This document shows positions 3,383 to 63,248 of a stretch of DNA of 64,000 nucleotides, piece by piece. Each line of letters opens with the position of its first letter. Position 1 is the first letter of the stretch. The translations under genes were made by a program, and so were the position numbers. This DNA is from an uncultured bacterium. GTDB lineage: Bacteria > Patescibacteriota > Minisyncoccia > UBA6257 > GWB1-50-10. The notes under the pieces are model-generated. The model saw only the letters and a program-made list of their open reading frames with translations, was not told the DNA's origin and searched no databases. The stretch is taken from assembly GCA_963713955.1 (NCBI GenBank), contig OY970216.1:637483-701482 (forward strand), in the 5' to 3' direction.

Positions 3383-3386
3383 GTCG

Positions 3387-22026: not shown

Positions 22027-22113
22027 ATTTTATCTTATCACAATCTCCCCGATTCCTTTCTCTTATTCGCTTATTCGCACGAATTAGAGATATGAGTGCG
22101 CGGGGGATTATTG

Positions 22114-22374: not shown

Positions 22375-22411
22375 CCCCTCTTACCCTTTTATTATATCAT
22401 CTTCCTCATCT

Positions 22412-22433
22412 AATTCTCTCATTCGCGCGAATT
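22412..22433. promoter_or_regulatory. Candidate ArsR operator (palindrome core ATTCGCGCGAAT); related half-palindrome at 22066-22087
   Basis: tctcattcgcgcgaattagaga between arsR and the divergent zinc-ribbon gene; ttattcgcacgaattagaga upstream of the LigT-like gene. Confidence 0.3.
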
Positions 22434-22545
22434 AGAGAACTTAAGAATGGACAAGGAGACCGCTAGCGTGGAAAAATGGACAAAAACCACGGCTCGTGGT
22501 AATACAAAACTAAATAAACAGCAATATTAAAAAGGAGAATAAGGT

Positions 22546-22797
22546 ATGAACTACTCAGCCAGAGGTCCGGAGCATATCCTCTATTGCGACGACTGCAACG
22601 AACCCCTCCGAATGATGGACCGCAGGGGGATCTACTGCCCCAAGTGCAAAGTAAGCGATTCCGGACGGAGTCCGAAATTCATTATGTCCTGCGTGGATTG
22701 CAATAAACCTCTGCAAGTCACAGAGGGCGGAGGGCTGTATTGCGAGCACTGCCTTTTCTATCCCAGCCTGCAGGATGTAGCACTCGAAGAGTGTTGA
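22546..22797 (+). CDS. Small protein with two tandem zinc-ribbon (CxxC..CxxC) modules
   Basis: YCDDCNEPL..GIYCPKCK and MSCVDCNKPL..GLYCEHC; AAAGGAG 8 nt upstream of the ATG; divergent from arsR. Confidence 0.55.
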   Translation: MNYSARGPEHILYCDDCNEPLRMMDRRGIYCPKCKVSDSGRSPKFIMSCVDCNKPLQVTEGGGLYCEHCLFYPSLQDVALEEC

Positions 22798-22820
22798 ACA
22801 TCCAGCCAGTATTCGCAACG

Positions 22821-22851
22821 AATACCCAACATCTGTTGGGTATTTTATTTT
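22821..22851 (+). terminator. Rho-independent terminator (possibly bidirectional) between the zinc-ribbon gene and pilin-like gene 1
   Basis: AAUACCCAACAUCUGUUGGGUAUU + UUAUUUU. Confidence 0.6.
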
Positions 22852-22978
22852 AGCTATTTCCTATCCCCTAAGCCCTAACTTCCACCTTCCCGCCGCCGCC
22901 CGCATAGGTTTTAGTTCTTGCTTTCAACAAAAATTTTTCGATTTCGGTTTTGGGCATTTTCTTATCCGCCTAAGTGCA

Positions 22979-24244: not shown

Positions 24245-24297
24245 TAGTTCAATTATAGCAGGAAAACGTCCTGCCTTTTTGTTCTGGGAGGAGAGTG

Positions 24298-24394
24298 TAG
24301 TTATCCACAGATTTATGGAGAGCGGGAAGCCATAATGAGAGCGGGAGGCCATATAATTGGGGGATAACTCCGTTGCGGCTCCCGGTGCGGAGTC
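24298..24394. repeat. Intergenic repeat, family C copy 2 (with an internal 20-nt duplication), just upstream of pilin-like gene 1
   Basis: agttatccacagatttatggagagcgggaagccataatgagagcgggaggccatataattgggggataactccgttgcggctcccggtgcggagtcc. Confidence 0.65.
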
Positions 24395-24463
24395 CAAATT
24401 TCTATTCCCTATCCCTCTAACCCGTCCGAGCCTTGAGGAGAAATCGAGTTAATGCATCTCTGT

Positions 24464-25255
24464 TCATAATTTGAATAACTTCTTCGCGTTTTTCCAGAAG
24501 ATCCTCTCCTTATCTCTCCCAGGGATCTTCAGCGAATTGATGAGATCGATATGTTCCTGGAAGCCGCATATAGCGTAGTCCGTTCCGAACAAGACGCTTT
24601 CCGGGTTGTCCCTCACGGTCCGTTCCAGAACATCCCTTATCTTATTCAGGCCGATTCTCCTCACCACTTCTTCGTCAGCGAGCCCGGAAGTGTCGAAATG
24701 GATATTCCTGAAACCTCTCGTCATGTCGTAGCAGTAGTCAACTTCCGGATAGAAATAGTGGGCGATGACGATCTTGAGATCCGGAAATTGTTTCGCGACT
24801 TCGACGATATGCTTCGGGTCGTTGTACTCCGCGGCCTCCGGGTGGTTCGGGTTCGAGCCGGTATGGATCACGATAGGGCGACCGTATTTCACGCAGAGTT
24901 TGTAAACGGGCATTAATCTCTCGTCCGTCGGATAGATCGGGTCGTGTCCCGGGAATATCTTGATGCCTCTTATCTTATCCTCCCTGAAAAGCCGGTCCAG
25001 CTTACCCATCCATTCCTTCCCGTCACTCCTCACGTCTATCGTTCCCAGGAGAAAAATATTTTTCTCGCTTTCGGTCAGCCTAAGGCATATATCCAGATCC
25101 CCTATTCCCGAACCGCGTATATTGTCGGGAATCATCACCGCGGCATCGATACCGCCATCCTTCATGTCGGAAAGAAGTTTCTTCTTTGCAACCTCGAAAT
25201 CAAAGCCCGAGCCGCTCTTCACAACAGGTAAGTGAACGTGTGCGTCTATTATCAT
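24464..25255 (-). CDS. Amidohydrolase-2 family metal-dependent hydrolase (TIM barrel)
   Basis: Start at MIIDAHVHLP (classic amidohydrolase HxH); ..VIHTGS.., ..IAHY.. further metal-ligand positions. Confidence 0.75.
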   Translation of the reverse strand: MIIDAHVHLPVVKSGSGFDFEVAKKKLLSDMKDGGIDAAVMIPDNIRGSGIGDLDICLRLTESEKNIFLLGTIDVRSDGKEWMGKLDRLFREDKIRGIKIFPGHDPIYPTDERLMPVYKLCVKYGRPIVIHTGSNPNHPEAAEYNDPKHIVEVAKQFPDLKIVIAHYFYPEVDYCYDMTRGFRNIHFDTSGLADEEVVRRIGLNKIRDVLERTVRDNPESVLFGTDYAICGFQEHIDLINSLKIPGRDKERIFWKNAKKLFKL

Positions 25256-25340
25256 ATTTTCATCCGGGCTTTCGATAAAAATTTTTCCAGTTCGGTTTTT
25301 ACAGCTGGAGGAGACATTTGTTCTAACTTTACTACTCCTG

Positions 25341-25613
25341 TTACTGCACCTCATTCTGAACTTCTTCAGACCCGACCGGAGCGGCAGGCACCTGTAGCGA
25401 TGATAGTTTTGTTCGTATAGACCCTAAAAGTGTATTGGTAACCTTGGAGATGTCACCTATTTCCTCCAGCAAGTTAACTATTTTATTTATTTTCCAATAC
25501 CAACAGAAAAACTCGCGCAAAATAATGAAAAGACATATCGCTATCACTATCCATGCTATAAAAACCAACGCGTTGGAACTGCTCACCAGTTGCCCAAAAA
25601 TAAATTGATTCAT
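25341..25613 (-). CDS. Hypothetical small membrane protein (island)
   Basis: 90 aa, one TM helix, AT-rich coding. Confidence 0.4.
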   Translation of the reverse strand: MNQFIFGQLVSSSNALVFIAWIVIAICLFIILREFFCWYWKINKIVNLLEEIGDISKVTNTLLGSIRTKLSSLQVPAAPVGSEEVQNEVQ

Positions 25614-25656
25614 ATTCAGTTTTTACCCCCTAACTTCCTCGACCTTTCAAAAACTA

Positions 25657-25992
25657 CTACTTCTTGGAGAAATTTTTATAAACCTTATTTATGAAGTAAG
25701 CAATGGCACCTAAAGAAATTACCTCTACCACTAACCCGGCCACAGGATTGATGCCACTAAGGAAAATGGATATAACTAATTGAATAATAGCTATTATCAA
25801 AAGAGCAATTGTAACAAACGTTAAAACCCTACTCCACCTTGTAGTATTTCCATCAAACTTCTCGATAGAATCCTTCAATCGTCGCATCATTTCAACTTGA
25901 GCACCTTGAGACTTGAGACCACTTGTTGTACCTATAACTGTCTCACTAGCCAAGTTTACCAATTCTTCGTCTTTTTTATTTTTAAATTCCAT
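25657..25992 (-). CDS. Hypothetical small membrane protein (island)
   Basis: 111 aa, two C-terminal TM helices. Confidence 0.4.
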   Translation of the reverse strand: MEFKNKKDEELVNLASETVIGTTSGLKSQGAQVEMMRRLKDSIEKFDGNTTRWSRVLTFVTIALLIIAIIQLVISIFLSGINPVAGLVVEVISLGAIAYFINKVYKNFSKK

Positions 25993-26151
25993 AATTTATC
26001 TCAATTATTTCTACAACTTCTATTGTTCTAGCTCCAATCTAACCACATTTCAAGGAAAAGCTGGGCCCGGGTCCTGCTTCCTGCCTGGGGCAACGTCTTC
26101 GCGGCCAACAATATTACCTAAGGTAAACTATTATGTTCTCGTTCCATAGTT

Positions 26152-26772
26152 CTATTTATTCCAACCAAAAAGGTAAACGAGATAAGCAATGACTAGGCCT
26201 ATAATAACTGTAGATATGATCTTATTTTTCTTAATCCAACGCCAGGCATTACCAAAAACAAGTCTCCAATACGCACGATGCGGATTTTTAACATCCTTAA
26301 TGGTAATTCCTTCTGGCGTGAATTCTTTCCCTACCTGGACAAAAGACACTGAACCACCAGCACCACCATCGCCGCCCTTGCTACCATTGAATCCATGACC
26401 ACCGTGACCGCCAGAAGCCTCAATTTTAGGTCCGGAGCTCTTCGGCTCGAACAATGACTTGAATTCCTCTTCGCCCATACTTTCTAGTTTCCCGTGTATA
26501 TAATTCAGATCCTGTATCACAGCATCAATATCATCGAGAATTTCCACATTGTTTGAAAAGGCAGAAAGATACACATCACTATTCTTGCTTAACGCGTTAA
26601 TATACTTCTCATACTTGCCGTAGGCCTGAGTCAATCCGGCCCGATGTATCAATAATGTCCGTTCCCGTGAGTCGGAAGATAACGAATAATCGGCGTTCAC
26701 AAAGGTTCGCCGGTAATTTTCAACCTGAGAACGAAAGACTGAAACTTGTGTTTTTAAATCATTAATTGTCAT
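26152..26772 (-). CDS. Hypothetical protein with Gly-rich segment and C-terminal TM anchor (island)
   Basis: Start at MTINDLKT; SGGHGGHGFNGSKGGDGGAGGS; C-terminal IISTVIIGLVIAYLVYLFGW. Confidence 0.4.
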   Translation of the reverse strand: MTINDLKTQVSVFRSQVENYRRTFVNADYSLSSDSRERTLLIHRAGLTQAYGKYEKYINALSKNSDVYLSAFSNNVEILDDIDAVIQDLNYIHGKLESMGEEEFKSLFEPKSSGPKIEASGGHGGHGFNGSKGGDGGAGGSVSFVQVGKEFTPEGITIKDVKNPHRAYWRLVFGNAWRWIKKNKIISTVIIGLVIAYLVYLFGWNK

Positions 26773-26798
26773 TACTCTCTGGCACACCTACTCATCTG

Positions 26799-26850
26799 GC
26801 AGTTCACTAACAATCCAAGCCGGGCGATGCCCGGCTTGGAAGTGATTGAC
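26799..26850 (-). terminator. Hairpin terminator downstream of the R-M pair
   Basis: CCAAGCCGGGCAUCGCCCGGCUUGG on the minus strand followed by AUUGUUAG. Confidence 0.4.
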
Positions 26851-26967
26851 TTTCGAGTCGGGGCTCTTTCTCTCTATTCCCCGCCTGCTCTTTATTCGAT
26901 TACCTTAATTTTAACCCTCTTAAATTAGAACACAAAGAAGTTGTCCACCTTGCCTCCAGAGCTTGGA

Positions 26968-27765
26968 TCAGATGATTGTCGTCACTTTTTCGTACAACAT
27001 TGGCAAACAATCCTGCCTCATGCGGAATTTTGTCCCATGATTGTGGCCAGTGCGGGCATCGAAATCAACAAGCACATTGCCCTTTTCTAAAGCCTTCAAG
27101 AATCCTTCGAAGCTAAATTTCTGCAACATCATCACTTTTGTATATTTGTAATATTCTTTTCCACGTTCTACCTTCGATTCCGCTTGAACATAGAAAGCAT
27201 TAAGTAATTTCGTACCAGCCTTATGTTCTAGATCATCAAATCCCCAATACGGTTGCGGATCAAGTTCACCTAACCCGGTTCGTTTCTTGACTAGCTTAAG
27301 CCAATCCTTGTGTCTAGGATCAACACTTTTGGCATTAAACGAAACTAAGACCTTCTCTTCCTTACGATCTATGGTAACTTTAAAACCACGATCGCTTCGT
27401 GACTTACCATGAATAGTTTGACGAAAACTCATCTCGCCTTTCCTATACAGCTTCCCCGCTTCCTCATGGGGCCATCCGTATAGAGGAAGTAAAACCTGGG
27501 GCACGAATCTTATAGCACGGGGCGACGGTTCAGTATGAAATAGTGTGGTTAGCGAGGTGGTGTTTGTCCTCTGCGCCTTCAATTCCCACTCCGCCGCGTT
27601 CGGGATTGGTAGGTTATTCTCTTTAATACCAAGCAGATCCTCAAGTGTATTACCTACGCCGCCAGTATTACCCCTCCGTGCGTTTGGGATCCACCCCATC
27701 GCAGAAATTTTTCTCAGTTTTGCTATCAATGCTGGTTTTGTATAGATTACTGGTCTCTTCTTCAT
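26968..27765 (-). CDS. Type II restriction endonuclease, MvaI/BcnI family-like
   Basis: N-terminal LRKISAMGWIPNARRGNTGGVGNTLEDLLGIKENNLPIPNAAEWELK resembles the MvaI/BcnI catalytic N-terminus; 3 nt downstream of an N4/N6 MTase. Confidence 0.6.
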   Translation of the reverse strand: MKKRPVIYTKPALIAKLRKISAMGWIPNARRGNTGGVGNTLEDLLGIKENNLPIPNAAEWELKAQRTNTTSLTTLFHTEPSPRAIRFVPQVLLPLYGWPHEEAGKLYRKGEMSFRQTIHGKSRSDRGFKVTIDRKEEKVLVSFNAKSVDPRHKDWLKLVKKRTGLGELDPQPYWGFDDLEHKAGTKLLNAFYVQAESKVERGKEYYKYTKVMMLQKFSFEGFLKALEKGNVLVDFDARTGHNHGTKFRMRQDCLPMLYEKVTTII

Positions 27766-27767
27766 AG

Positions 27768-28577
27768 TTATAAGAGCTTTGACTGGTGTTTATACTCTTT
27801 AATTCTCTTTTCTGCCATCTCACAATATTCTGGTGAGACATCTATTCCTATATAGTTTCGCTTATTGTTCATCGCAGCAATTGCTGTAGTACCAGAACCC
27901 ATAAATGGATCCAAGATCATCTTGGCATTCGTCGCGGAAACAATCCGGTCAATTAAATTAACCGGAAAGGCAGCGGGATGTTCATTATTCATTTCTTGAG
28001 TAAATTCCCAAACATCGCCACGAGCATTAGCTTTTGGCGAAAGTTTGAACTTAGGCTTGGCAATCAGATAGATTACCTCGTAAGTTGGAAGGAAATAACC
28101 CGGGTTGAAATTCAATCCCCCTTTTCGCTTCCAGATAATAATCTGGCGAATTGGAAAACCACTGACGATATCCTGACGATCTTGCAGTAAACCACCCTGC
28201 ACGCGCCACTTGTGGTTGTAAAAAATTGCACCATCATCTGGTATAACTCGCATCATCTCTGTCAGGCAATCTCTTTGCCACTTAACATATTCTTCGTGTG
28301 GCATACAGTCATCATGGTTCGCATACCCTTTTTGAAGTGCGGCATTGGCCCATTTGCCACCTCGACCATCTTTCATTCCATTGCCAGTAGAATTCTTCAA
28401 GTTATAGGGCGGCGAAGTGACCACCAGATCAACCGCCCCATCCGGTATCTGTCTCATTACATCAACTGCATCACCACAAATGATCTTGTTTATAAAATCT
28501 TTGGGAAATCTAATGTCTTTTGAGATTTGTTTATTCGGAGTAATAGTTCCTCTTTTTAATACTGTTGATGGTTTCAT
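27768..28577 (-). CDS. DNA methyltransferase, beta-class N4-cytosine/N6-adenine (SPPY motif)
   Basis: DLVVTSPPYNL (motif IV) and LDPFMGSGTTAIAA (FxGxG SAM-binding motif I) in circularly permuted beta order, as in M.MvaI/M.BcnI-type m4C MTases. Confidence 0.85.
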   Translation of the reverse strand: MKPSTVLKRGTITPNKQISKDIRFPKDFINKIICGDAVDVMRQIPDGAVDLVVTSPPYNLKNSTGNGMKDGRGGKWANAALQKGYANHDDCMPHEEYVKWQRDCLTEMMRVIPDDGAIFYNHKWRVQGGLLQDRQDIVSGFPIRQIIIWKRKGGLNFNPGYFLPTYEVIYLIAKPKFKLSPKANARGDVWEFTQEMNNEHPAAFPVNLIDRIVSATNAKMILDPFMGSGTTAIAAMNNKRNYIGIDVSPEYCEMAEKRIKEYKHQSKLL

Positions 28578-28722
28578 GATGGGAAGGATATAAGCTAATA
28601 TTACCCCATTTTTCTGTATTTTTCATCATCGAATATTATACGCAGCCGTGTTTAGTCATTTATTTAGATCCTTCCTTTTTCCCTTTTCTCCAACCACCAT
28701 TTCTTGAAAAACGGCATAAAAA

Positions 28723-29082
28723 TCAGAGCTCCGTATACTTTCTATGGCTCCCCCACGCTTTCTTGACGGGGTATTTTTTCTCGTTCTTCTCCATCTTCTT
28801 CTCCAAAGCTTTCTTAATGTCTATATCCAAATCGTGGCTCATAAGGAGCACCCAGTAGAGCACATCGGCCAGTTCTTCACCTATGTGCTCCTTGTGGGTT
28901 TTGATGTATTTTTTAATTTCCTCGCCATTCTTCCACTGGAAGTGCTCCAAGACTTCAGCGGCTTCCAAGGAAAGAGAAATGGCCACATCCTTCGGATTGT
29001 GAAACTGCTTCCAATTCCTGGCGTTCCTGAACTTTAAAATCCTGTTGGTTAGCGCTTTTATGTCGGACATGGTATCCCTCAA
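28723..29082 (-). CDS. MazG-like nucleotide pyrophosphohydrolase (all-alpha NTP-PPase)
   Basis: LSLEAAEVLEHFQW..EELADVLYWVLLMSHDL EExxE/D motifs. Confidence 0.7.
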   Translation of the reverse strand: MRDTMSDIKALTNRILKFRNARNWKQFHNPKDVAISLSLEAAEVLEHFQWKNGEEIKKYIKTHKEHIGEELADVLYWVLLMSHDLDIDIKKALEKKMEKNEKKYPVKKAWGSHRKYTEL

Positions 29083-29188
29083 ATTCTACCCCTTCCGCCT
29101 CTCCATAATCCGCCAGCCGGCGGATGTGGATAACCATCCCCCACCCCGCCGAAAAGCAGAAAGGCGCCATCTGAGTTAGAATATACCT

Positions 29189-29884
29189 ATGGACCTCAAT
29201 GGCAAAATCGTTGTTATTACAGGTGGCAGCAAAGGTTTAGGTAGATCTCTGGCTGAACTTTTGTCAAAAGAAGGTGCGAAACTGGCTATCTGTTCTCCCG
29301 AGGAGGAGGAAATTCTTGCGGTTGCGAAGGAGATTGGTTGCTTGGGAATACGAGCCGATGTACGCCGCGAAGAAGAAGTTAAAAAACTTGCTGAACTTAC
29401 GGAGCGGGAATTTGGAAGAATTGACATATGGATAAACAATGCCGGCATCCGGATTCCGAGAGTTCCACTCGAGGATACAGACATGAAAAGAGTGCACGAG
29501 ATGGTGGAAGTGAATCTTTTCGGGACAATGTACGGTTCCAAGGCGGCGATGATCCAAATGAAAAAACGAAAAGAAGGTACAATCGTAAACATACTTTCGA
29601 CAAGTGCACTTGAGGGAGCGAAATATTCCACCGGATACGGAGCCAGCAAGGGCGGAGCCATAGCTTTTACGAAATCGCTCAGAGTAGAACTTTCACCCTT
29701 TGGAATAAGTGTCATCGGTGTTTATCCCAAGGGAATGAGAACGGAGTTTTTCCGCGAGAATAAGCCAGCTGATTATGAAAAATACATGGACCCAAGAGAA
29801 GTAGCACGGCAAATCGTGAACAATCTCAAGAAAAACAAACCGGAAGAAGAATTCTTCATCAAAACTGATCCGTCTGCTCCTTAA
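29189..29884 (+). CDS. Short-chain dehydrogenase/reductase (SDR) family oxidoreductase
   Basis: ITGGSKGLG (TGxxxGxG), NNAG, YGASKGG (YxxxK). Confidence 0.85.
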   Translation: MDLNGKIVVITGGSKGLGRSLAELLSKEGAKLAICSPEEEEILAVAKEIGCLGIRADVRREEEVKKLAELTEREFGRIDIWINNAGIRIPRVPLEDTDMKRVHEMVEVNLFGTMYGSKAAMIQMKKRKEGTIVNILSTSALEGAKYSTGYGASKGGAIAFTKSLRVELSPFGISVIGVYPKGMRTEFFRENKPADYEKYMDPREVARQIVNNLKKNKPEEEFFIKTDPSAP

Positions 29885-29937
29885 GTTCTCCTCCCACAAA
29901 CAAAAAAGCATGGCGTTTTCCTGCTATAATTGAACTA

Positions 29938-31157
29938 ATGAACTTTCGTTTCAGAGAATCTTTTACCTTAATTGAGCTTCTTGTAGTCATAGCCATCCTT
30001 GCCGTCTTAGCAACCGCCGTCATCCTAATCCTGAATCCTGCCCAGCTCTTAGCCCAAGGAAGAGACTCCACCAGACTCTCTGATCTTGCAGCTCTGAATA
30101 GTGCTCTCTCCCTCTTCCAGGCTGATCAATGGAGTCAATCCATGGGATTAGCTTCCACCACCTATATCTCAGTCCCTGATCATCATCCACCTGTGGTAAT
30201 CTAGGCCTCCCTGCCTTACCTTCAGGCTATTCCTATCACTGTGTCCCCAGTGCTTCCTCCACGAGAATAGATGGTACCGGCTGGATTCCCGTCAATCTAA
30301 CCCTCATATCATCAGGATCTCCTCTTTCGAAGCTCCCCCTAGACCCCCTGAACACTACCTCGAGTGGAGAATACTATACCTATACGCCAGGAGGATCCTT
30401 TGAACTCACGGCCATACCCGAGTCCCAGAAGTACCGCGCTCAGTATCAAACCATTCCTCCCCTTCAGAACATTCCTGGAGTTATAGCCTATGGATCGAAT
30501 CTTTCCCTCTCTCCCCTCTTCAATACCCAAGGGTTAGTGGGGTATTGGCCGCTGGATGGAAACTCTAATGATATGTCTGGGAATGGGAATAATGGGAGTT
30601 TAACGGCGGGGGTAGGATGGGGAAACGGTAAAATTGGTTCAGCGTTGAGTTTAAATGGTAGTGGTAATGATTACGCTCGGGTTTCTCGTGTGGTGGCCAA
30701 TGATTTTTCAATTTGTTTATATGTTAAGGCATTGAGTGATTCTACGTCGGGATCGCAATGGTACCATGGACAGGGACTTTTTGATTCAGAGGTTAGTGGT
30801 GTCGTGAACGACTACGGCGTAGCATATCTTAATAACAAGGCTGCGTTTGGTACGGGGAACCCCGACACAACTATCCAGAGCACCCAATTCATAAACGATG
30901 GAATATGGCATCAAGTATGTGCTACCAGGATACAAAGTAGCGGAAGCATTTTTTTGTACGTAGACAGCAATTTACAGGCGAGTACAACTGAGGCGAATAC
31001 CGCATCTCTCACGGCACCGACATATTCTTATATGGGCAGCTCAAATGGAGGTGTCGGAAATCACGGGATCATTAATGGCCTCATCGACGACGTTCGCGTC
31101 TACAACAGGGCTTTGTCAGCAGCAGAGATTGCGGCTATATACAACGCCCAGAAATAA
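29938..31157 (+). pseudogene. Prepilin::LamG paralog 2, disrupted by a frameshift (4-nt deficit relative to paralog 3 near 30170-30200)
   Basis: Frame A 29938..30204 (MNFRFRES|FTLIELLVVIAILAVLA...SVPDHHPPVVI*); frame B continues ..SSSTCGNLGLPALPSGYSYHCVPSASSTRIDGTGWIPVNLT.. through 30537..31157 (..GLIDDVRVYNRALSAAEIAAIYNAQK). Confidence 0.6.
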
Positions 31158-31251: not shown

Positions 31252-32478
31252 ATGAACTTTCGTTCCCGAAGCAGCTTCACTTTGATCGAGCTCCTTGTCG
31301 TGATCGCGATCCTGGCTGTCCTAGCCACAGCAGTCGTCCTAGTCTTAAACCCCTCCCAGCTCCTTGCTCAGGGAAGGGATTCCACCCGTCTCTCAGACCT
31401 GGCAGCTCTGAATAGCGCTTTATCCTTGTTCCAGGCTGATGCCTATACCCAGTCATTGGGGACTCCCAATACCCTCTACATCTCAGTCCCTGACAATGCC
31501 TCCTCCACCTGTGGATCCCTGGGTCTTCCCACCCCTCCCACAGGCTATTCCTATCACTGTGTCCCCAGTGCTTCCTCCACGAGAATAGATGGTACCGGCT
31601 GGATTCCCGTCAATCTAACCCTCATATCATCAGGATCTCCTCTTTCGAAGCTCCCTATTGATCCCATAAACACTACCTCATCTGGTCTCTACTACACCTA
31701 TGTCTCAGGAGGATCATATGAATTGACCGGTCTACCTGAATCACAGAAGTACAAGGCACAGATTGAAGGCAACCCAATGATTCCCATGATTCCCGGAGTC
31801 ATAGCCTATGGTTCCAACCTTACCTTATCTCCCTTGTTCAGTACCCAGGGGTTAGTGGGCTATTGGCCTCTCGATGAAGGGTCCGGCTCAACAGCCAATG
31901 ATATGAGTGGGAATGGGAATAATGGGACGTGGAATGGAAGTGGAACGCATTATGCTCAGGGTAAGGTTGGGGGGTTCGCTGGGCAATTCAATGGGACAAG
32001 CACACAAGATTACACTAGCGCTCCTTATAACACTTCACTCAATGTAACGAGTCTTACTATAACCGCCTGGGTCAAAAACTCGGCAACGGGAGAGAGGGTT
32101 GTCGCCTCAAAATTTGGTTCATCACCTTATCAAGGTTATTGGTTTGGCGAAGACAGTGGTGGTGGATTGCGGGTTTGCTTAGGTACAGGTGGTCAGACAT
32201 GTATTAATAAGGGACTTTTTCCTACCGATAATACCTGGCATTTTATTTCTTTTACTTATGACAATACGACCGGTACTTGGAATTTCTATATTGATGCTTC
32301 TACAACTGGTTCATCTACGGCAGTTACCGCTATAGCACCGGTTAATACGGATTTTCGGATCGGAGTCGGCCAGTGGAGTTCAAGCGACTATTTTCAGGGA
32401 CTAATCGACGATGTTCGTATCTACAACCGAGCGTTGTCCGCAGCGGAGATAGCTGCTATCTATAACGCACAGAAGTAA
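31252..32478 (+). CDS. Prepilin::LamG paralog 3
   Basis: MNFRSRSS|FTLIELLVVIAILAVLA..; C-terminal GLIDDVRIYNRALSAAEIAAIYNAQK. Confidence 0.8.
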   Translation: MNFRSRSSFTLIELLVVIAILAVLATAVVLVLNPSQLLAQGRDSTRLSDLAALNSALSLFQADAYTQSLGTPNTLYISVPDNASSTCGSLGLPTPPTGYSYHCVPSASSTRIDGTGWIPVNLTLISSGSPLSKLPIDPINTTSSGLYYTYVSGGSYELTGLPESQKYKAQIEGNPMIPMIPGVIAYGSNLTLSPLFSTQGLVGYWPLDEGSGSTANDMSGNGNNGTWNGSGTHYAQGKVGGFAGQFNGTSTQDYTSAPYNTSLNVTSLTITAWVKNSATGERVVASKFGSSPYQGYWFGEDSGGGLRVCLGTGGQTCINKGLFPTDNTWHFISFTYDNTTGTWNFYIDASTTGSSTAVTAIAPVNTDFRIGVGQWSSSDYFQGLIDDVRIYNRALSAAEIAAIYNAQK

Positions 32479-42583: not shown

Positions 42584-42745
42584 GGCGGGAATAAATTCCT
42601 GCCATTTTTGTTTTCTGTCCATAAGAGGTAGATCTCTCTCCTCGAAGAAATCTCTCGCAGCGAGGTTATAGCTTCGCAAGCGAAGACGACCCTGAGATCG
42701 TCCGGGGATAAATTCGCGCCGATTTTTTCCTTGACCTCCCCCATT

Positions 42746-42779
42746 CCAAGTTAAAAAAGCCATGGCTTTTTTAACTTGG
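42746..42779. terminator. Bidirectional rho-independent terminator between convergent dnaE and a hypothetical gene
   Basis: Perfect 34-nt palindrome ccaagttaaaaaagccatggcttttttaacttgg with A/U runs on both strands. Confidence 0.6.
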
Positions 42780-46227: not shown

Positions 46228-47436
46228 CTATTTCTGCGCGTTATAGATAGCTTGAATCTCCGCTGCCGATAATGCTCGGTTATAGATGCGGACATCGTCA
46301 ATTAAACCGCTGAATTTAGAAAGAGTGCCCATATTAGGTGGACAGGGATAGTTATTTCCTCCTCCTATAATGGTACAACTGCCCCCGCCATTTACATTGA
46401 CCCCTGAAACTCCATTGCCGTTTTGAACGGCCAAACCGTCGATGTAGAGGTAGTAATTATCGCCTTGCCTAGTACCTACAATAAAGTGCCATTGGCTATC
46501 TGAAAAAACTGTTGTAGATAGTGTATGGTAAATCCCATCCGTACCACGAAGCGTATAGGCACCGTTATTCAACACAAACTCGGGTGTCCAGGAATAATTA
46601 CTCAATATTATATTCGAAGAACCAACACCAGATTTGAACCAACTGGATAGAGTTAAACTCCCCATGCCGAGGTTATCCATCCAAGTTCCGATGTTTATAT
46701 AGTCATCCGTCCCATTGAAGTTCCCAGCCTGGTTGATCTTCCCTCCTGTATAATAGGAACCATTGGTCATGGAACCATACCAGGTACCACTATTGTTGTT
46801 TCCACTCCTGTCCCCCGGGTCTCCATCGAGGGGCCACCATCCTACTAATCCCTCACTCCTTCCAATAAGGGAAAGGTCAGAACCGATCTCATACTTCCCA
46901 GGATCATAGCCTTGGTCCTGGGATGCAGTAGAACTGAGGTATTTCTGTGATTCCAAGGCACTGGATAAGGCATAGGAGCCTCCTGATACGTAGGTATAGT
47001 AGAGTCCAGTGCTTGTGGTATTCGTAGGGTCTATCGGGAGCTTGGATAAAGGGGATCCTGATGATAGGAGGGTAAGATTCACGGGAATCCAGCCTGTTCC
47101 GTCTACTCTTGTTGAGGAAGAGCTTGGAACACAGTGATAGGCCCATCCTATAGGAGGAGAAGACAGTCCCAGATTGGCACAGGTGGATGTGGTATCGGGG
47201 ACTGATACGTAGAGGGTATTCGGAGTCCCTAAGGACTGGGTATATTGATCTGCTTGGAAGAGGGATAAGGCACTATTCAGGGCTGAAAGATCAGAGAGCC
47301 TGGTTGAATCTCTTCCTTGAGCTAAGAGCTGGGCGGGATTCAAGACCAAGACGACGGCGGTTGCAAGGACGGCTAAGATCGCGATGACTACTAATAACTC
47401 AATGAGGGTGAAAGATTCTCTACCTCTGAGATTCAT
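46228..47436 (-). CDS. Prepilin::LamG paralog 4
   Basis: MNLRGRES|FTLIELLVVIAILAVLA..; C-terminal GLIDDVRIYNRALSAAEIQAIYNAQK; divergent LamG core. Confidence 0.8.
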   Translation of the reverse strand: MNLRGRESFTLIELLVVIAILAVLATAVVLVLNPAQLLAQGRDSTRLSDLSALNSALSLFQADQYTQSLGTPNTLYVSVPDTTSTCANLGLSSPPIGWAYHCVPSSSSTRVDGTGWIPVNLTLLSSGSPLSKLPIDPTNTTSTGLYYTYVSGGSYALSSALESQKYLSSTASQDQGYDPGKYEIGSDLSLIGRSEGLVGWWPLDGDPGDRSGNNNSGTWYGSMTNGSYYTGGKINQAGNFNGTDDYINIGTWMDNLGMGSLTLSSWFKSGVGSSNIILSNYSWTPEFVLNNGAYTLRGTDGIYHTLSTTVFSDSQWHFIVGTRQGDNYYLYIDGLAVQNGNGVSGVNVNGGGSCTIIGGGNNYPCPPNMGTLSKFSGLIDDVRIYNRALSAAEIQAIYNAQK

Positions 47437-48232: not shown

Positions 48233-49054
48233 CTACAACGCCACAGTTAAAGCGTTCACTTCGTCCATCACCGCGCGCACTTTCTTTTCTTTGAGACCCA
48301 GAGAAAAAAGCGCATCCGCGTTGACCTCTTTCGCGAGCACCAACCCCTTCTCCAAAAGGGTCCTTTTTGCCCACCCATCGAGCGTGAGGAGACTAGTCAG
48401 CGGATGAAGGTGCGACTGTTCTATCAAACGCTGCAAACTTCTCTCATGCGGATAATTCCAAGCGATGGCGGTGAGTCCGACGCAGGCGCTATATTCCCGC
48501 GCGTCGCCGGTCAACTTCGTATTCGTGACGAGCCATGCCTCGTCCCATCGGTCGACGCTCTTGATGTCCTCAAATCGCGAATGGACGTACATTGCGATTT
48601 TCACGTCGCTTTTGATACCCGGTTCGTTGTGATACTTGGCCTCGACCATAATTTGCCTCCCCTCTTTCTTCGCGACGACGTCCACTTCATGCGTGACGCA
48701 TTTGCCGCGAATCATGAGATTCGTCTCAGCCTCGTACCCCTCCGCCTTGAGAACCCACGCGACCAGCTTCTCGAACGGATGGCCAGTGGGACCGAGTTCC
48801 ATGATGGCTCGCTTCAGGCGGTATCGCGCCGCGAAGGGGCCTTCTTCTTTCCTTAAAAGTTCGAACGCTTGGTCGTGGATCTCGGAAGTTCTGGTTCTGT
48901 CCTTTACCTTTTGTTTTATTTTGCCGGCTATCCACTTGCTCAAGATGTCGCTCGCCCCCGCTCTCGCAAGAGATTGTCGCAATTTTTCTTCGGAAAAGGG
49001 CTCAATCTCGCCCGACGCCTTGAGGACGCTTATGGTTCCATTCATTTCATCCAT
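48233..49054 (-). CDS. ATP-cone domain fused to Mrr-like restriction-endonuclease-fold domain
   Basis: Start at MDEMNGTISVLKASGEIEPFSEEKLRQSL (ATP-cone). FEKLVAWVLKAEGYEAETNLMIRGKCVTHEVDVVAKKEGRQIMVEAKY matches the Mrr_cat D-(D/E)xK core. Confidence 0.55.
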   Translation of the reverse strand: MDEMNGTISVLKASGEIEPFSEEKLRQSLARAGASDILSKWIAGKIKQKVKDRTRTSEIHDQAFELLRKEEGPFAARYRLKRAIMELGPTGHPFEKLVAWVLKAEGYEAETNLMIRGKCVTHEVDVVAKKEGRQIMVEAKYHNEPGIKSDVKIAMYVHSRFEDIKSVDRWDEAWLVTNTKLTGDAREYSACVGLTAIAWNYPHERSLQRLIEQSHLHPLTSLLTLDGWAKRTLLEKGLVLAKEVNADALFSLGLKEKKVRAVMDEVNALTVAL

Positions 49055-49078
49055 TATAACAGAAAACCCCGGGTTTTC
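49052..49078 (-). terminator. Hairpin + U-run downstream of eno
   Basis: GAAAACCCGGGGUUUUC + UGUUAUAAUG on the minus strand. Confidence 0.5.
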
Positions 49079-49197
49079 ACCCGGAGTTATAAGAAAAAGA
49101 GGGGGTGTGGCCCTTTTTAGCCCTTGAGACCCGGCCACGGGGTTTCTTCTCTCAGGGGCGTTGAGGTATACGACCGACGGGGCCGTTTCGTTTCAAA

Positions 49198-52961: not shown

Positions 52962-54149
52962 TTACTTTTCTGCGTTGTACATCGCTTGAATCTCGGCTGC
53001 GGAAAGTGGACGGTTGTAGATACGAACATCATCGATCAAGCCGTTGAAATAACCGTTACCGGCACCAATGACTGGATTTCCAGAAATCGAGGTTATGCTC
53101 CCGGGAACGTATGTCTTGGAACTCACCATAACGCCGTTTATGTAAAGCTTTGTCACTCCCGAGATGGCATCGCCGGTACCCGCCGCATAATACCATGTAC
53201 CATAAGAGGGAATTACATAACGCGGAGTTGCATCCTCTCTAGTACTATTCACGTTAATCTCTCCGACTATTTGTCCGTTGCCATCTATCCAGACACCATT
53301 CATGTATCCCCAACCTACAACTTGCGTACTTATCTGGCTGTTTGGCCTAACCCATGCCGAAAAAGAAACTTGGTTCGAGGTGGTGATGAGCGAATTCAGG
53401 GCAGCACTCAAATTCACGGAAGCGTTGCTACTCGTCCCGTTGAAACTTAAGCACCCTCCAACCTTACAGCCTGAAGTCCACATGGGGCTGTTCACTAATG
53501 TCCCATTATTCCCATTCCCACTCATATCACTCGCATTCCCATCCAGCGGCCAGTACCCCACGAGCCCACTTGCATTGAATAAGGGAGAAAGATTGAGGTT
53601 GGAACCATAGGCAATGACTCCAGGAATCATCTGGATCATAGGATTTGTCTCAATCTGGGCTTTGTACTTCTGTGACTCAGGGATAGCGGTAAGCTCAAAG
53701 GAGCCTCCTGGCGTATAGGTATAGTAGAGTCCTGAGGACGTAGTATTCACGGGATCAATCGGGAGCTTGGATAATGGGGATCCTGATGAAATGAGGGTGA
53801 GATTGACGGGAATCCAGCCAGAACCATCTGTTCTTGTGGAAGAAGCAGCTGGAACACAGGCATAGGAGTAACCTCCTGGAAGGGCAGGGAGCCCCAGGTT
53901 GCCACAGGTACTTGAGGAGTCAGGGATAGAGACATAGGTAGTGGAGGCATTTCCTAAGGGTTGGTTCCATTGATCGGTCTGGAAGAGGGATAAGGCACTA
54001 TTCAGAGCTGAGAGATCAGAGAGTCTCGTGGAATCCCTTCCTTGAGCGAGAAGCTGGGAAGGGTTCAAGACCAAGACGACGGCGGTTGCGAGGACCGCAA
54101 GGATCGCAATCACGACCAGGAGCTCGATCAGGGTGAAGGATTCCCTCAT
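52962..54149 (-). CDS. Prepilin::LamG paralog 5
   Basis: MRES|FTLIELLVVIAILAVLA..; C-terminal GLIDDVRIYNRPLSAAEIQAMYNAEK. Confidence 0.8.
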   Translation of the reverse strand: MRESFTLIELLVVIAILAVLATAVVLVLNPSQLLAQGRDSTRLSDLSALNSALSLFQTDQWNQPLGNASTTYVSIPDSSSTCGNLGLPALPGGYSYACVPAASSTRTDGSGWIPVNLTLISSGSPLSKLPIDPVNTTSSGLYYTYTPGGSFELTAIPESQKYKAQIETNPMIQMIPGVIAYGSNLNLSPLFNASGLVGYWPLDGNASDMSGNGNNGTLVNSPMWTSGCKVGGCLSFNGTSSNASVNLSAALNSLITTSNQVSFSAWVRPNSQISTQVVGWGYMNGVWIDGNGQIVGEINVNSTREDATPRYVIPSYGTWYYAAGTGDAISGVTKLYINGVMVSSKTYVPGSITSISGNPVIGAGNGYFNGLIDDVRIYNRPLSAAEIQAMYNAEK

Positions 54150-59544: not shown

Positions 59545-61125
59545 TTATTTTTGAGGTTCTTCTTTGACTTCGCCACCTTGACCCCCTTCTTTCACGGTTA
59601 CGGTATCAGAAAGAGTAGGACCTGTCAATTGAATCCTTAATTCCTCAAGCTCTTCGGCGGGTATCTTCCGCACCCCCGTGCCGGCTGGTATCAACCTTCC
59701 AATGATCACGTTTTCTTTCAAGCCTCTCAAGTTATCCACTTTGCCGGAGACAGAGGCTTCAACTAAAACTCTCGCCGTTTCCTGGAAAGAGGCTGCGGAA
59801 AGGAAACTCTCCGTCCCAAGAGCGATTCTCGTTATGCCGAAAATTTTCTGCACTGCCCGCGGGGGTCTCTTTTTCGTTTTCTTCATCGCCCGCACGGCGC
59901 CGATGAACCGGGGTTTGCCGACTATTTCCCCCATCATGAACTCGGAATCGCCCGGATCCTTGACCACGACTTTGGAAAGCATTTGCTTCATCATTATTTC
60001 GACGTGCTTGTCGTTGATGACCGAACCCTGGGAAACATATATTTTCTGCACTTCGTTTATGACGTAATGGATCAAAGCATCGAGTCCCCGATAAGCCAGA
60101 ATCTCCCGTAAATCAAGCGGACCCTCATATATCTGATCTCCTTTTTTGACTGCATCCCCGACTTTGACCCTGATCCCGGCCCGCGGAGGAACCAGATATT
60201 CGTAAACGTTCGCATCTTTGGAGGAAGATTTCCTGCCTCTCCTCTTTGGTTTTGACGGTTTATTTTCCGAAACGGATATGACGGTCGAGAGCCCTCGCTC
60301 CGCTATGTCGGTTACCACCCCTTCCGCCCTCACGAGCGCAGCTTTGCCTTTCGGGACTCTCGCTTCAAAGACCTCTTCTATCCTCGGCAAGCCGTGGGTG
60401 ATGTCCGCACCCGCGATGCCGCCGATGTGGAACGTCCGGAGTGTAAGTTGGGTCCCCGGCTCGCCGATGGATTGGGCGGCTATCACACCGACCGCCTCAC
60501 CGATCTCAACTTTTTTGTTTCTGCCCAGATCCACGCCATAGCACGTAGCACAAACCCCGGAAAGAGATTTGCAGGTTATGGGCGATCTTACTTTGACCAA
60601 TTCCAGCTTGGAGTTGTGTATCTCCTTGGCCGCCTCCCTCGTAATCGACTCATTTGCTTTGACGACGACGCGCCGATCAATCCTTATATCTTCCAGCGCC
60701 GTCCTCGAAAAAATCCTCTCGGCAAAAGAATAACCGTACTCGTCGCCCTCGCTCCTCAAGATCTCGATGCCGCCCTTAGAGCCGCAATCATCCTCTCTCA
60801 CGAAAACATCCTGAGCAACGTCGACCAGCCTCCTCGTGAGATAGCCAGCCGCGGCGGTCTTCAAAGCCGTGTCAGTGGAGCCCTTTCTGGCTCCATGGGC
60901 ACTTATGAAATATTCAAGGACACTCAATCCTTCTTTGTACGAAGACTTAGCCGGCAACTCGATGGTTTCCCCGCGGACGTCTTGTATCAAACCTTTCATC
61001 CCGATCATCTGGATCATCTGCGACCAGCCGCCGCGGGATTTCGAATCCAGGATGAGATACAGAGGATTGTCTTCTTTCAAGGTAGCCGGCAAAACTTTGG
61101 CTATCCTCTCTCTGCATCGGTCCAA
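59545..61125 (-). CDS. rpoC: RNA polymerase beta' subunit, C-terminal segment (frame shifted relative to the upstream segment)
   Basis: ..GLSVLEYFISAHGARKGSTDTALKTAAAGYLTRRLVDVAQD.. The track ORF starts at a TTG inside the overlap. Confidence 0.85.
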   Translation of the reverse strand: MDRCRERIAKVLPATLKEDNPLYLILDSKSRGGWSQMIQMIGMKGLIQDVRGETIELPAKSSYKEGLSVLEYFISAHGARKGSTDTALKTAAAGYLTRRLVDVAQDVFVREDDCGSKGGIEILRSEGDEYGYSFAERIFSRTALEDIRIDRRVVVKANESITREAAKEIHNSKLELVKVRSPITCKSLSGVCATCYGVDLGRNKKVEIGEAVGVIAAQSIGEPGTQLTLRTFHIGGIAGADITHGLPRIEEVFEARVPKGKAALVRAEGVVTDIAERGLSTVISVSENKPSKPKRRGRKSSSKDANVYEYLVPPRAGIRVKVGDAVKKGDQIYEGPLDLREILAYRGLDALIHYVINEVQKIYVSQGSVINDKHVEIMMKQMLSKVVVKDPGDSEFMMGEIVGKPRFIGAVRAMKKTKKRPPRAVQKIFGITRIALGTESFLSAASFQETARVLVEASVSGKVDNLRGLKENVIIGRLIPAGTGVRKIPAEELEELRIQLTGPTLSDTVTVKEGGQGGEVKEEPQK

Positions 61126-63248
61126 ATGGTTATGATCCTGCTCTTCCGTTCCTCGAAGGTCAAAAGCCCTTCGTTGTACTGTTCTTCAACCACGCCAACT
61201 TTTTCCTCAGCTTCACTCAAGATCGTCTTTTTCTCTTCCGGCAAAATGGTATCAAGCATCCCCCACGTGACCGATGAAAGCGTCGAGTATTGGAAGCCGA
61301 GATCTTTTATCCTGTCGACGTATAACCTGCTTTCGTCGACGCTGTAGCGTTCTATGATCTTGCCGACGAGGCCTTTTAATCCCCCCTTATCGAGAACGGT
61401 ATTCACGAAACCGAAATCCGGAGGCAAGATAGCGTTGAAAATCAAGCGGCCATAGGATGTCTCGACAGGCTCGTTTTCCACCCGAATTTTAACCAGCGCG
61501 TTGATATCAACGATGCTGTTTTCATAAGCAAGTTCCAGCTCTCTGAAATCTGCGAAGATTTTCCCCTCTCCCTTGGCTCCCCTTTTTACGCGGGTCAGGA
61601 AGTAAATGCCCAAAATGACGTCGTTCGTCGGCGTCACAATGGGACCTCCATCGGCCGGCTTCAGGAGATTGTGGCCGGCATCCATGAGTTCCTTGGCTTC
61701 ATACTGAGCTTCAGCGGTCAAAGGCAAATGGACAGCCATTTGATCGCCGTCGAAATCGGCGTTGAACGCGGCGCAAACGAGGGGCGGAATCCTAATGGCC
61801 AAATCTTCTATGAGAAGCGGCTTGAAAGCTTGAATCCCCAGACGATGGAGTGTCGGCGCTCTGTTTAAGAGCACTCTCCTCGATTGAATCACCTCTTCGA
61901 GGATCGCCCACACCTCCGGAGGCCCCTGCTCGATGAGACGGTTCGCCTGTTTTATGTTAAACGCCAGACCCCGTTCTATTATCTTATTGATAATGAAGGG
62001 GCGGAAGAGTTCGATGGCCATGTTTTTGGGAAGACCGCACTCGTTGAGTTTCAGTTCGGGGCCGACCACGATGACCGATCTTCCAGAGTAGTCAACACGC
62101 TTGCCCAAGAGATTTTGGCGGAACCTGCCCTGTTTGCCCTTCAGCATGTCTGCCAGCGATTTGAGAGGCCTTCGCCGCGAAGACAAAAGCTGGCTTCCCA
62201 GCCTCGCCGTGTTGTCTATGAGAGCGTCGACCGCTTCCTGAAGCATCCTCTTTTCATTGACGATAATGACTTCGGGCGATTTGAGCTCCATGAGCTTTTT
62301 CAACCTGTTGTTCCTGTTGATGACGCGTCCATAGAGATCGTTCAAATCCGCCGTGGCGTAAAAACCGCCGTCCAAGACCACCATGGGCCGGAGTTCTGGC
62401 GGCAATACCGGCAAGACCGTCATCACCATCCATTCAGGCCTCACGTTCGCTTTCATCATCGAGCGCGCGAGTTTCAGGCGGAGTAGTATTTTTTTCTGTT
62501 TCAAGACATCGCCGGCTTCTTGAAGTTCCTTCTGGAGTTCTCTCGACAAAACCTTGAGATCCACCGTCTCCAAAATTTTCCGCACGGCTTCGGCTCCCTG
62601 CCCCGCTTCGAACACGTCGCCGAATTTATCCACCAGATTGTAATACTCATCCTGACTCAAGATGAGGCCGACTTTCAAAAGTGAAATGATTTCCTTCACT
62701 TCACTTTGCTTTTTCTTGAGTTCTTCCGTCTTAAAACCTTCGCCCTTCAGCTCCTTGAATTCCTTGGTAAGGCTGTCAAGAGCCCGCTTCTTGTTTTCCT
62801 CGTTGACTCTCGTCACGATGTACGCCGCGTAGTAAATCACCTTCTCAAGTTTCGGCTCGGAAATGTTCAAAACAAGGCTGAGCCGCGAGGGAACCGTTTT
62901 CAAAAACCATATGTGAGTCGTAGGCGTTGCGAGCTTGATGTGTCCCATTCGTTCCCGCCGAACCGACGAGTGGGTTACCTCGACTCCGCACTTCTCACAG
63001 ACGATGCCCTTGAACTTCACTTTCTTGTACTTGCCGCAGTAACATTCATAATCCCTCGTCGGCCCGAAGATTCTCTCCGAGAACAAACCGTCTTTCTCCG
63101 GACGTTGCGTCCGGTAGTTCAGGGTTTCTGGTTTGGTAACCTCTCCGTACACCGTGGAACCATCCGACCCCCGGTGAGCTGACCACTCGAGTATTCCCTC
63201 CGGCGAAGCCAGCTTGATGCCTATTCTTTTGATGTCATCTCTCGTCAT
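61101..63248 (-). CDS. rpoC: RNA polymerase beta' subunit, N-terminal segment (ends at a TAG created by a +1 frame shift in a GAGAGAG run)
   Basis: Zn-binding CYCGKYKKVKFKGIVCEKCGVEV, NADFDGDQMAVHLP catalytic motif; ends ..IWTDAERG* where homologs continue ..DR[VS]KAMM.. Confidence 0.85.
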   Translation of the reverse strand: MTRDDIKRIGIKLASPEGILEWSAHRGSDGSTVYGEVTKPETLNYRTQRPEKDGLFSERIFGPTRDYECYCGKYKKVKFKGIVCEKCGVEVTHSSVRRERMGHIKLATPTTHIWFLKTVPSRLSLVLNISEPKLEKVIYYAAYIVTRVNEENKKRALDSLTKEFKELKGEGFKTEELKKKQSEVKEIISLLKVGLILSQDEYYNLVDKFGDVFEAGQGAEAVRKILETVDLKVLSRELQKELQEAGDVLKQKKILLRLKLARSMMKANVRPEWMVMTVLPVLPPELRPMVVLDGGFYATADLNDLYGRVINRNNRLKKLMELKSPEVIIVNEKRMLQEAVDALIDNTARLGSQLLSSRRRPLKSLADMLKGKQGRFRQNLLGKRVDYSGRSVIVVGPELKLNECGLPKNMAIELFRPFIINKIIERGLAFNIKQANRLIEQGPPEVWAILEEVIQSRRVLLNRAPTLHRLGIQAFKPLLIEDLAIRIPPLVCAAFNADFDGDQMAVHLPLTAEAQYEAKELMDAGHNLLKPADGGPIVTPTNDVILGIYFLTRVKRGAKGEGKIFADFRELELAYENSIVDINALVKIRVENEPVETSYGRLIFNAILPPDFGFVNTVLDKGGLKGLVGKIIERYSVDESRLYVDRIKDLGFQYSTLSSVTWGMLDTILPEEKKTILSEAEEKVGVVEEQYNEGLLTFEERKSRIITIWTDAERG

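What the first reader, a model, noticed from the sequence alone, without database searches (positions are those of the whole stretch)
61095..61130. rpoC is split by a +1 frame change within a (GA)n run
Two ORFs overlap by 25 nt. The upstream frame ends ..IWTDAERG-TAG, while the downstream frame reads ..DRCRERIAKVLPATLKED. Homologs are continuous (..IW..DR.SKAMMDNL..). Removing one base from gcagagagagg restores ..IWTDAERIAKVLPATLKED... So this is an indel error, a recent frameshift, or a programmed +1 event in an essential gene. It does not resemble the cyanobacterial rpoC1/rpoC2 split position.
Basis: seen in the sequence. Interest (0 to 1): 0.55.

Follow-up and report, generated by a model that had tools for sequence, protein, structure and literature searches.

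The report
Sequencing indel splits the rpoC gene
The RNA polymerase beta-prime gene looks cut in two here only because one base is missing next to a short GA repeat. Other assemblies of the very same strain carry the intact gene, so this is almost certainly a sequencing or assembly error and not biology.

Summary
The split is really in the sequence. ORF-N, 61101..63248(-), is 715 aa. ORF-C, 59545..61125(-), overlaps it by 25 nt. Together they cover one rpoC profile end to end (positions 2-665 and 667-1144).

ORF-C lies in the -1 (=+2) frame. The lesion is one MISSING base, the third position of an Ala codon (GAT GC_ AGA GAG AGG ATA), between window 61113 and 61114. Adding a G gives one 1234-aa ORF reading TDARERIAK, exactly as in the five closest relatives.

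The decisive evidence comes from same-strain contigs from other datasets, which show 0 substitutions over 5.8-11.9 kb. At this site two of them are intact ((GA)4), the window is -1 nt, and a fourth is -2 nt. One of the intact contigs carries a different 1-nt G-run indel elsewhere in rpoC.

All 120 protein homologues listed and all 80 genome loci are continuous across the site. There is no slippery heptamer and no downstream structure (z = -0.02). The position matches neither the cyanobacterial nor the archaeal split. No other gene in the window shows a frame break.

Verdict: consensus indel artefact at a low-complexity run. Low interest.

The parts
61101..63248 (-). ORF-N: N-terminal 713 residues of RNA polymerase beta' (rpoC), followed by the out-of-frame residues E-R-G and TAG
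   Evidence: NCBIfam rpoC_TIGR profile 2-665/1147, 942.5 bits. Identical to P0123, called on a contig of 804,691 bp.
59545..61125 (-). ORF-C: C-terminal part of rpoC in the -1 frame. Homologous coding resumes at AGA 61113..61111. The first possible start is TTG at 61125. The source's gene caller used the TTG at 61082-61080 (P0126, 511 aa).
   Evidence: rpoC_TIGR profile 667-1144/1147, 572.7 bits. P0126.
61113..61114 (-). Lesion: one base (G on the coding strand, C on the + strand) is missing between these two positions. It is the third base of the Ala codon whose first two bases are 61115-61114.
   Evidence: Alignment to relatives L001-L006 and to same-strain contigs L007 and L009, which read GATGC-G-AGAGAGAGG. 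Inserting G gives one ORF of 1234 aa.
61106..61113 (-). GA/AG run (+ strand CTCTCTCT). It is 9 nt of alternating bases in the intact allele, 8 in the window and 7 in L008. Among same-strain assemblies it is an indel hotspot.
61101..61188 (-). The 88-nt zone in which both frames are open, so the only place any recoding could occur. It holds no X XXY YYZ heptamer, and its longest homopolymer is T4.
   Evidence: The 103 nt downstream (61010..61112) fold no better than shuffles (z = -0.02).

Best explanation
The organism, an uncultured Patescibacteria (CPR) bacterium, has an ordinary single-piece rpoC of 1234 codons. In the assembly this window comes from, the consensus lost one G at the boundary between GATGC and a (GA)4 run (GAT GCG AGA GAG AGG became GAT GC- AGA GAG AGG). 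Gene callers therefore see a 715-aa and a 511/526-aa fragment. The split is a consensus or base-calling indel at a short low-complexity run, not a property of the genome.

Shown: the missing base, the intact allele in the same strain, and the absence of recoding signals.

Inferred: that the cause is sequencing or assembly error. This fits a long-read origin, given the 804,691-bp contig and the Flye-style contig name of a sister assembly.
For: (1) Contigs from other datasets that carry the identical S6 protein match the window with 0 substitutions over 11,913 bp (L007), 8,069 bp (L008) and 5,840 bp (L009). The only differences are indels.

(2) At the junction, L007 and L009 read GATGCGAGAGAGAGG, which is intact (TDARERIAK). 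The window lacks 1 nt. L008 lacks 2 nt. That is three length states at one 9-nt run.

(3) L007 has a further G4/G5 indel in rpoC at window 60558, which splits its gene into 914 + 329 aa. So three of the four assemblies break rpoC, with three different lesions at two low-complexity sites.

(4) Two more contigs from the L008 dataset (L010, 6,251 bp; L011, 4,110 bp) are 100% identical to the window. The strain is therefore clonal across these data and differs only at this run.

(5) Inserting the G gives one 1234-aa ORF. The five nearest relatives (83-85% identical) all have a base at that position (C/G/A/C/T) and read TDARE[RK]IAK.

(6) All 120 homologues listed are 1193-1252 aa, and 80 genome loci match across the junction in one segment.

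(7) Both halves are conserved right up to the lesion, and the profile positions abut (665|667), so nothing has decayed.

(8) Published background: long-read consensus indels in low-complexity sequence commonly cause false frameshifts in MAGs (PMC9262707). Indels dominate nanopore errors in 2-bp repeats, with deletions more common than insertions (PMC11912559).
Against: No reads were available, so the error is inferred and not observed. The sequencing platform of each dataset is unknown.

The window is otherwise clean. About 60 ORFs have complete domain matches and none shows a frame break; the one incomplete match, an RF2 lacking domain 1, has no sign of a frameshift. The window also agrees perfectly with 18.4 kb of contigs from ERR10755942, including many 5-8-nt homopolymers. 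The problem is therefore strikingly site-specific and not general noise. A (GA)4 run is short for a systematic error. If ERR10755942 is short-read data, its -2 allele would be hard to explain as error.
Confidence: 0.85

Rival explanations
1. This is a genuine, recent 1-nt deletion in rpoC. It would be carried by the sampled population or a sub-population (a null allele, perhaps sheltered by polyploidy or by co-existing intact genomes) and was captured in the consensus.
For: The break is site-specific in an otherwise clean 64-kb window that is identical to other contigs elsewhere. A second frameshift allele (-2, one GA unit, the classic slippage product) occurs at the same run in another dataset. 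Perfect conservation up to the lesion fits a very recent event.
Against: rpoC is single-copy and essential, so a null allele should not reach consensus frequency. It would have had to happen twice independently at the same 9-nt run, with no substitution anywhere in 22 kb of compared sequence. Intact alleles exist in the same clone (L007, L009). The -1 lesion is not a repeat-unit slip. Another assembly shows an unrelated homopolymer indel in the same gene, which points to error and not to mutation.
Confidence: 0.09
2. The frameshifted gene is functional. Either the ribosome recodes at the GA run (a -1 shift, or a +2 re-pairing of tRNA-Glu from GAG to the GAG two bases on, giving TDAERIAK), or beta' works as two polypeptides, with ORF-C re-initiated at TTG 61125 (AGGA lies 9 nt upstream) by translational coupling.
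For: The 25-nt overlap has a possible TTG start and an AGGA upstream. GAG-AGA-GG geometrically allows GAG-to-GAG re-pairing at +2 (sequence). Natural split beta' subunits exist in cyanobacteria and archaea (one search matches; established knowledge).
Against: There is no X XXY YYZ heptamer in the 88-nt permissive zone. tRNA-Ala on GCA cannot re-pair on UGC. There is no downstream structure (z = -0.02). The break is absent from the same strain in two assemblies and from all relatives, whereas programmed events are conserved. The position matches neither natural split: cyanobacterial about 100 aa upstream, archaeal about 150-200 aa downstream. The sequence on both sides is still in perfect register with an uninterrupted gene.
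Confidence: 0.04

Closest known systems
False frameshifts from consensus indels in long-read or metagenome assemblies (the problem measured by IDEEL-type tests; PMC9262707)
   Same: There is a single-base length error in a low-complexity run. The gene is split into two abutting ORFs. The allele differs between assemblies of the same strain. No substitutions accompany it.
   Different: The run is a short dinucleotide repeat boundary ((GA)4 next to GATGC), not a long homopolymer. The rest of the window shows no other such error. The platform was not verified.
Cyanobacterial/plastid split of beta' into rpoC1 (gamma) and rpoC2
   Same: Beta' is encoded as two adjacent ORFs.
   Different: That split maps to ORF-N residue about 600-613 (rpoC1_cyan ends at residue 595; rpoC2_cyan profile 2 aligns to residue 614). 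This is about 100 residues upstream of the break here. It is a clean gene boundary conserved across a phylum, not a frame break unique to one assembly.
Archaeal split of the largest subunit into A' (Rpo1N) and A'' (Rpo1C)
   Same: The largest RNAP subunit is made as two polypeptides.
   Different: The A' profile end (785-839/883, the bridge-helix region) aligns to ORF-C residues 60-114, and A'' starts near ORF-C residues 165-200. That split therefore lies more than 150 residues downstream of this break.
Programmed ribosomal frameshifts in bacterial genes (dnaX -1 at A AAA AAG; prfB +1 at CUU UGA C)
   Same: There are two overlapping frames within one essential gene.
   Different: There is no slippery motif, no stimulatory structure, no conservation, and the direction is not +1.

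Membership tests
Bacterial RNA polymerase beta' (rpoC, TIGR02386) | Full-length match to the rpoC profile | tested here: met
   ORF-N covers profile 2-665 and ORF-C covers 667-1144 of 1147. Pfam Rpb1 domains 1-5 are found in homologues. The repaired ORF is 1234 aa and 83-85% identical to P0001-P0005.
Bacterial RNA polymerase beta' (rpoC, TIGR02386) | Encoded as one uninterrupted ORF | tested here: not met
   Not met in the window. Met across this site in same-strain contigs L007 and L009.
Cyanobacterial-type rpoC1/rpoC2 split | Break at the gamma/beta' boundary | tested here: not met
   rpoC1_cyan aligns to ORF-N 9-595, and rpoC2_cyan profile 2-100 aligns to ORF-N 614-712. PDB cyanobacterial beta' chains 8gzg_Z and 8h3v_B begin about 100 residues before the junction.
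Cyanobacterial-type rpoC1/rpoC2 split | Split conserved in relatives | tested here: not met
   120 homologues of 1193-1252 aa. 80 genome loci are continuous. Two same-strain contigs are intact at the site.
Archaeal A'/A'' split | Break after the bridge helix, before the trigger loop | tested here: not met
   A' profile 785-839 aligns inside ORF-C (residues 60-114), and A'' profile 38-91 aligns to ORF-C 203-256.
Programmed -1 ribosomal frameshift | Slippery heptamer X XXY YYZ in the zero frame within the overlap | tested here: not met
   None in the 88-nt zone 61101..61188.
Programmed -1 ribosomal frameshift | Stimulatory downstream stem-loop or pseudoknot | tested here: not met
   61010..61112(-) folds at -26.9 kcal/mol against a shuffle mean of -26.8; z = -0.02. 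Pseudoknots were not modelled.
Programmed -1 ribosomal frameshift | Frameshift site conserved among relatives | tested here: not met
Programmed +1 frameshift (prfB-like) | Downstream ORF in the +1 frame | tested here: not met
   ORF-C is at offset 2 (= -1) from ORF-N: (63248-61125) mod 3 = 2.
Assembly/sequencing indel artefact | Allele differs between independent assemblies of the same strain, with no accompanying substitutions | tested here: met
   0 substitutions in 36.2 kb of pairwise alignment. There are four indel differences, three at this run and one in a G-run.
Assembly/sequencing indel artefact | Lesion lies in a homopolymer or short tandem repeat | tested here: met
   It lies at the boundary of the (GA)4 run, the only dinucleotide run of at least 8 nt in the compared regions.
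Assembly/sequencing indel artefact | Raw reads disagree with the consensus or are strand-biased at the site | not testable with these tools
   No read data are accessible. The accessions ERR10755942, ERR12035932 and ERZ25039477 were not found in the literature library.

The most novel reading that the evidence does not exclude
The (GA)n run in rpoC is a truly hypervariable site in this Patescibacteria population. Frameshift alleles (-1 and -2) reach high frequency because they are tolerated. Tolerance could come from two beta' fragments split between conserved regions E and F assembling into active polymerase (a third, independent natural split position), or from slippage on the GA run restoring the frame.
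Probability: 0.04. Interest if true: 0.7.

Novelty: not a real feature. Interest (0 to 1): 0.07.

Why it matters
The biological importance is small: the organism almost certainly has a normal rpoC. The practical importance is for annotation. The deposited 804,691-bp contig carries a falsely split essential gene (715 + 511 aa), and the only versions of this strain's beta' in the protein collection are three different broken ones. Marker-gene phylogenies, completeness estimates and pseudogene counts that use rpoC from this genome would be affected. The case also shows that a short dinucleotide-run boundary can be a recurrent indel site in otherwise near-perfect metagenome assemblies. If the small-probability alternative were true (a tolerated split or a hypervariable site in rpoC), it would be a new natural split position of the largest RNAP subunit.

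Tried and rejected
(1) Exact look-ups of ORF-N and ORF-C with the look-up of encoding contigs found nothing. The cluster look-up later showed ORF-N is in the collection as P0123. The way in was the neighbouring S6 protein.

(2) Scans of GTDB representative genomes and JGI metagenomes for this strain's junction, allowing any run length, found nothing. No further independent alleles could be obtained.

(3) A methylation-motif explanation was considered: GCATC/GATGC abuts the lesion, and an MvaI/BcnI-type R-M system lies at 26968..28577. GCATC occurs 134 times against 127 expected, so it is uninformative. There is no CCWGG or CCSGG at the site. I dropped the idea as untestable without reads.

(4) General noisiness of the assembly: Pfam and NCBIfam scans of about 50 further ORFs, plus domain annotations on matching contigs, found no other interrupted gene. 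An RF2 lacking domain 1 is not evidently a frameshift. The suspicious small overlapping ORFs at 16.5-17.4 kb and 32.5-33.2 kb resolved into ordinary separate minus-strand genes.

(5) A literature search for a programmed frameshift in rpoC returned three papers. In the one I read (PMC3750655), the two terms occur in unrelated passages. The sample accessions appear in no paper held.

Full report
**What is in the sequence**

On the minus strand, ORF-N (61101..63248, 715 aa) ends ..ITIWTDAERG-TAG. ORF-C (first start TTG at 61125, stop at 59545) reads ..DRCRERIAKVLPATLKED.. The two overlap by 25 nt. Both are pieces of one RNA polymerase beta' gene. ORF-N matches NCBIfam rpoC (TIGR02386) profile positions 2-665 and ORF-C matches 667-1144 of 1147. 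Nothing is lost or duplicated at the break. rpoB lies directly upstream (63258..), and rpsF, ssb, secE, nusG and rplK lie downstream, as in relatives. The lineage is Patescibacteria (CPR). The best hits are unnamed MAG proteins 83-85% identical, and the named ones are Jorgensenbacteria, Brennerbacteria or 'Patescibacteria group'.

**Correcting the frame arithmetic**

(63248-61125) mod 3 = 2, so ORF-C is in the -1 (equivalently +2) frame relative to ORF-N, not +1.
- Deleting one base from the GA run does not join the frames.
- Adding one base gives TDARERIAK.

The five closest relatives read TDARERIAK (four of them) or TDAREKIAK. The codon-level alignment shows that the window lacks exactly the third base of the Ala codon. 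Relatives have GAT/GAC GC[C/G/A/C/T] followed by AGA, AGG or CGG. The window has GAT GC- AGA GAG AGG ATA. The lesion lies between window 61113 and 61114, at the edge of the run CTCTCTCT (61106..61113, + strand) and next to GCATC (61114..61118).

**Same-strain evidence**

The neighbouring S6 protein is found, identical, on three other contigs:
- L007 (ENA assembly ERZ25039477, 'contig_64616', 49.5 kb)
- L008 (Logan assembly of ERR10755942)
- L009 (Logan assembly of ERR12035932)

They align to the window over 11,913, 8,069 and 5,840 bp with zero substitutions. The only differences are indels.

At the junction:
- L007 and L009 read GATGCGAGAGAGAGG. This is intact: GCG Ala followed by a (GA)4 run.
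- The window reads GATGC-AGAGAGAGG (-1 nt).
- L008 reads GATGCGAGAGAGG (-2 nt, one GA unit). Its rpoC is called as 766 + 487 aa.

L007, intact here, has an extra G in a G4 run at window 60558, and its rpoC is called as 914 + 329 aa. Two further contigs of ERR10755942 (L010, 6,251 bp; L011, 4,110 bp) are 100% identical to the window.

In 36.2 kb of pairwise comparison there are no substitutions and four length differences. All four lie in low-complexity runs of rpoC, and three of them lie at this one run. Inserting the G of L007/L009 into the window gives a single ORF of 1234 codons.

The cluster look-up shows the window's two fragments (P0123, 715 aa; P0126, 511 aa) on one NCBI/ENA contig of 804,691 bp. 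The only versions of this strain's beta' in the protein collection are the three differently broken ones.

**Tests for a programmed or functional split**

The zone where both frames are open is 88 nt (61101..61188). It contains no X XXY YYZ heptamer and no homopolymer longer than T4. The 103 nt downstream fold no better than shuffled sequence (z = -0.02). To yield the conserved protein, a -1 shift would have to occur with tRNA-Ala on GCA re-pairing on UGC, which cannot pair (inference from the sequence). A +2 re-pairing of GAG on GAG is geometrically possible but gives a protein one residue short of all close relatives.

No relative shares the break:
- 120 listed homologues are 1193-1252 aa.
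- 80 representative-genome loci match across the junction in one tblastn segment.
- Six fetched loci have a base at the site.

The position is not a known natural split. The cyanobacterial gamma/beta' boundary maps to ORF-N residue about 600-613, roughly 100 residues upstream. The archaeal A'/A'' boundary maps more than 150 residues downstream, after the bridge helix.

**Quality of the rest of the window**

Pfam and NCBIfam scans of about 50 other ORFs, and the domain annotations on matching contigs, show complete domain matches and no other interrupted gene. The one oddity is a release factor 2 that lacks domain 1, described below. The error is therefore site-specific and not part of general noise. 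This is the main point against a simple 'noisy assembly' story, and I could not explain it. A modified base near GCATC, or a base-caller weakness at the repeat boundary, is possible but untestable here.

**Interpretation**

The most likely explanation (about 0.85) is a consensus or base-calling indel at the boundary of a short GA run in a long-read-type metagenome assembly, with an intact true gene. This is a well-described failure mode. Indels in low-complexity sequence cause false frameshifts in MAGs (PMC9262707). In nanopore data, indels make up most errors in 2-bp repeats, with deletions predominating (PMC11912559). The platform of these datasets is inferred only from contig size and naming.

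A genuine recent null mutation (about 0.09) would require two independent frameshifts at one 9-nt run of an essential single-copy gene to reach consensus frequency in a clone with no other variation.

A tolerated split or recoding (about 0.04) has no supporting signal.

**Verdict**

The interpretation as a '+1 programmed event' is not supported. The 'indel error' option is supported, with the correction that a base is missing and not extra. Novelty: not a real feature. Interest: low.

Noticed in passing
window 13179..13907(-), with 13929..14216(-) upstream: A release factor 2 of only 242 aa. It matches prfB profile 112-346/353 (295.9 bits, below the 370 cut-off) and PCRF profile 98-194 plus a full RF-1 domain, and it has an SPF motif. 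The whole N-terminal domain 1 is absent. A 95-aa GIY-YIG protein ends 21 nt upstream, leaving no room for the missing part. ftsE and ftsX follow. It could be a lineage-specific short RF2 or a truncation.
   Followed up: partly
window 22000..30000, especially 26968..28577(-): A low-GC island (43-46% against about 52% elsewhere). It carries an MvaI/BcnI-family restriction endonuclease (full profile, 3e-67) next to an N4/N6 DNA methylase, plus a MazG-like gene and several ORFs with no family match. It is probably horizontally acquired.
   Followed up: partly
window 22979..24397(-), 30537..31157(+), 31252..32478(+), 46228..47436(-), 52962..54149(-): Five paralogous pilin-like proteins with a Laminin_G_3 domain (concanavalin-like lectin fold) are scattered through the window. 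Four also have an N-terminal methylation motif. The copy at 30537..31157 lacks that motif.
   Followed up: no
window 4372..6801(-): A single 809-aa ORF fuses glucose-6-phosphate dehydrogenase (G6PD_N + G6PD_C) to a 6-phosphogluconate dehydrogenase-like module (NAD_binding_2 + the first 115 of 290 positions of the 6PGD C-domain).
   Followed up: no
window 955..3857(-): A cluster of an unusual 506-aa protein (partial NQR2/RnfD match + C-terminal NAD_binding_1 domain), ApbE flavin transferase and an FMN_bind protein. It may be a reduced Rnf/Nqr-like redox module.
   Followed up: no
L007 position 6984 (= window 60558): In the sister assembly ERZ25039477, rpoC is intact at the GA run but has G5 instead of G4 here. 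That splits the gene into 914 + 329 aa. The window, L008 and L009 agree on G4.
   Followed up: yes
L001 13350..14031: In the closest relative MAG (GCA_027423825.1), thymidylate kinase is called as two overlapping fragments (68 + 176 aa), whereas the window and other relatives have 228-252 aa. It is probably another assembly frameshift.
   Followed up: no
window 55932; window 42744..42773: The Logan contigs from two different runs (L008, L009) both stop at exactly window 55932, inside or near rplK. L011 begins with a 30-nt self-reverse-complement match at 42744..42773. These are likely de Bruijn-graph break points (a shared k-mer or a palindrome) and not biological boundaries.
   Followed up: no
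window 48233..49138(-): A 301-aa protein combines an ATP-cone domain with an Mrr-type restriction endonuclease catalytic domain. This is an uncommon pairing.
   Followed up: no
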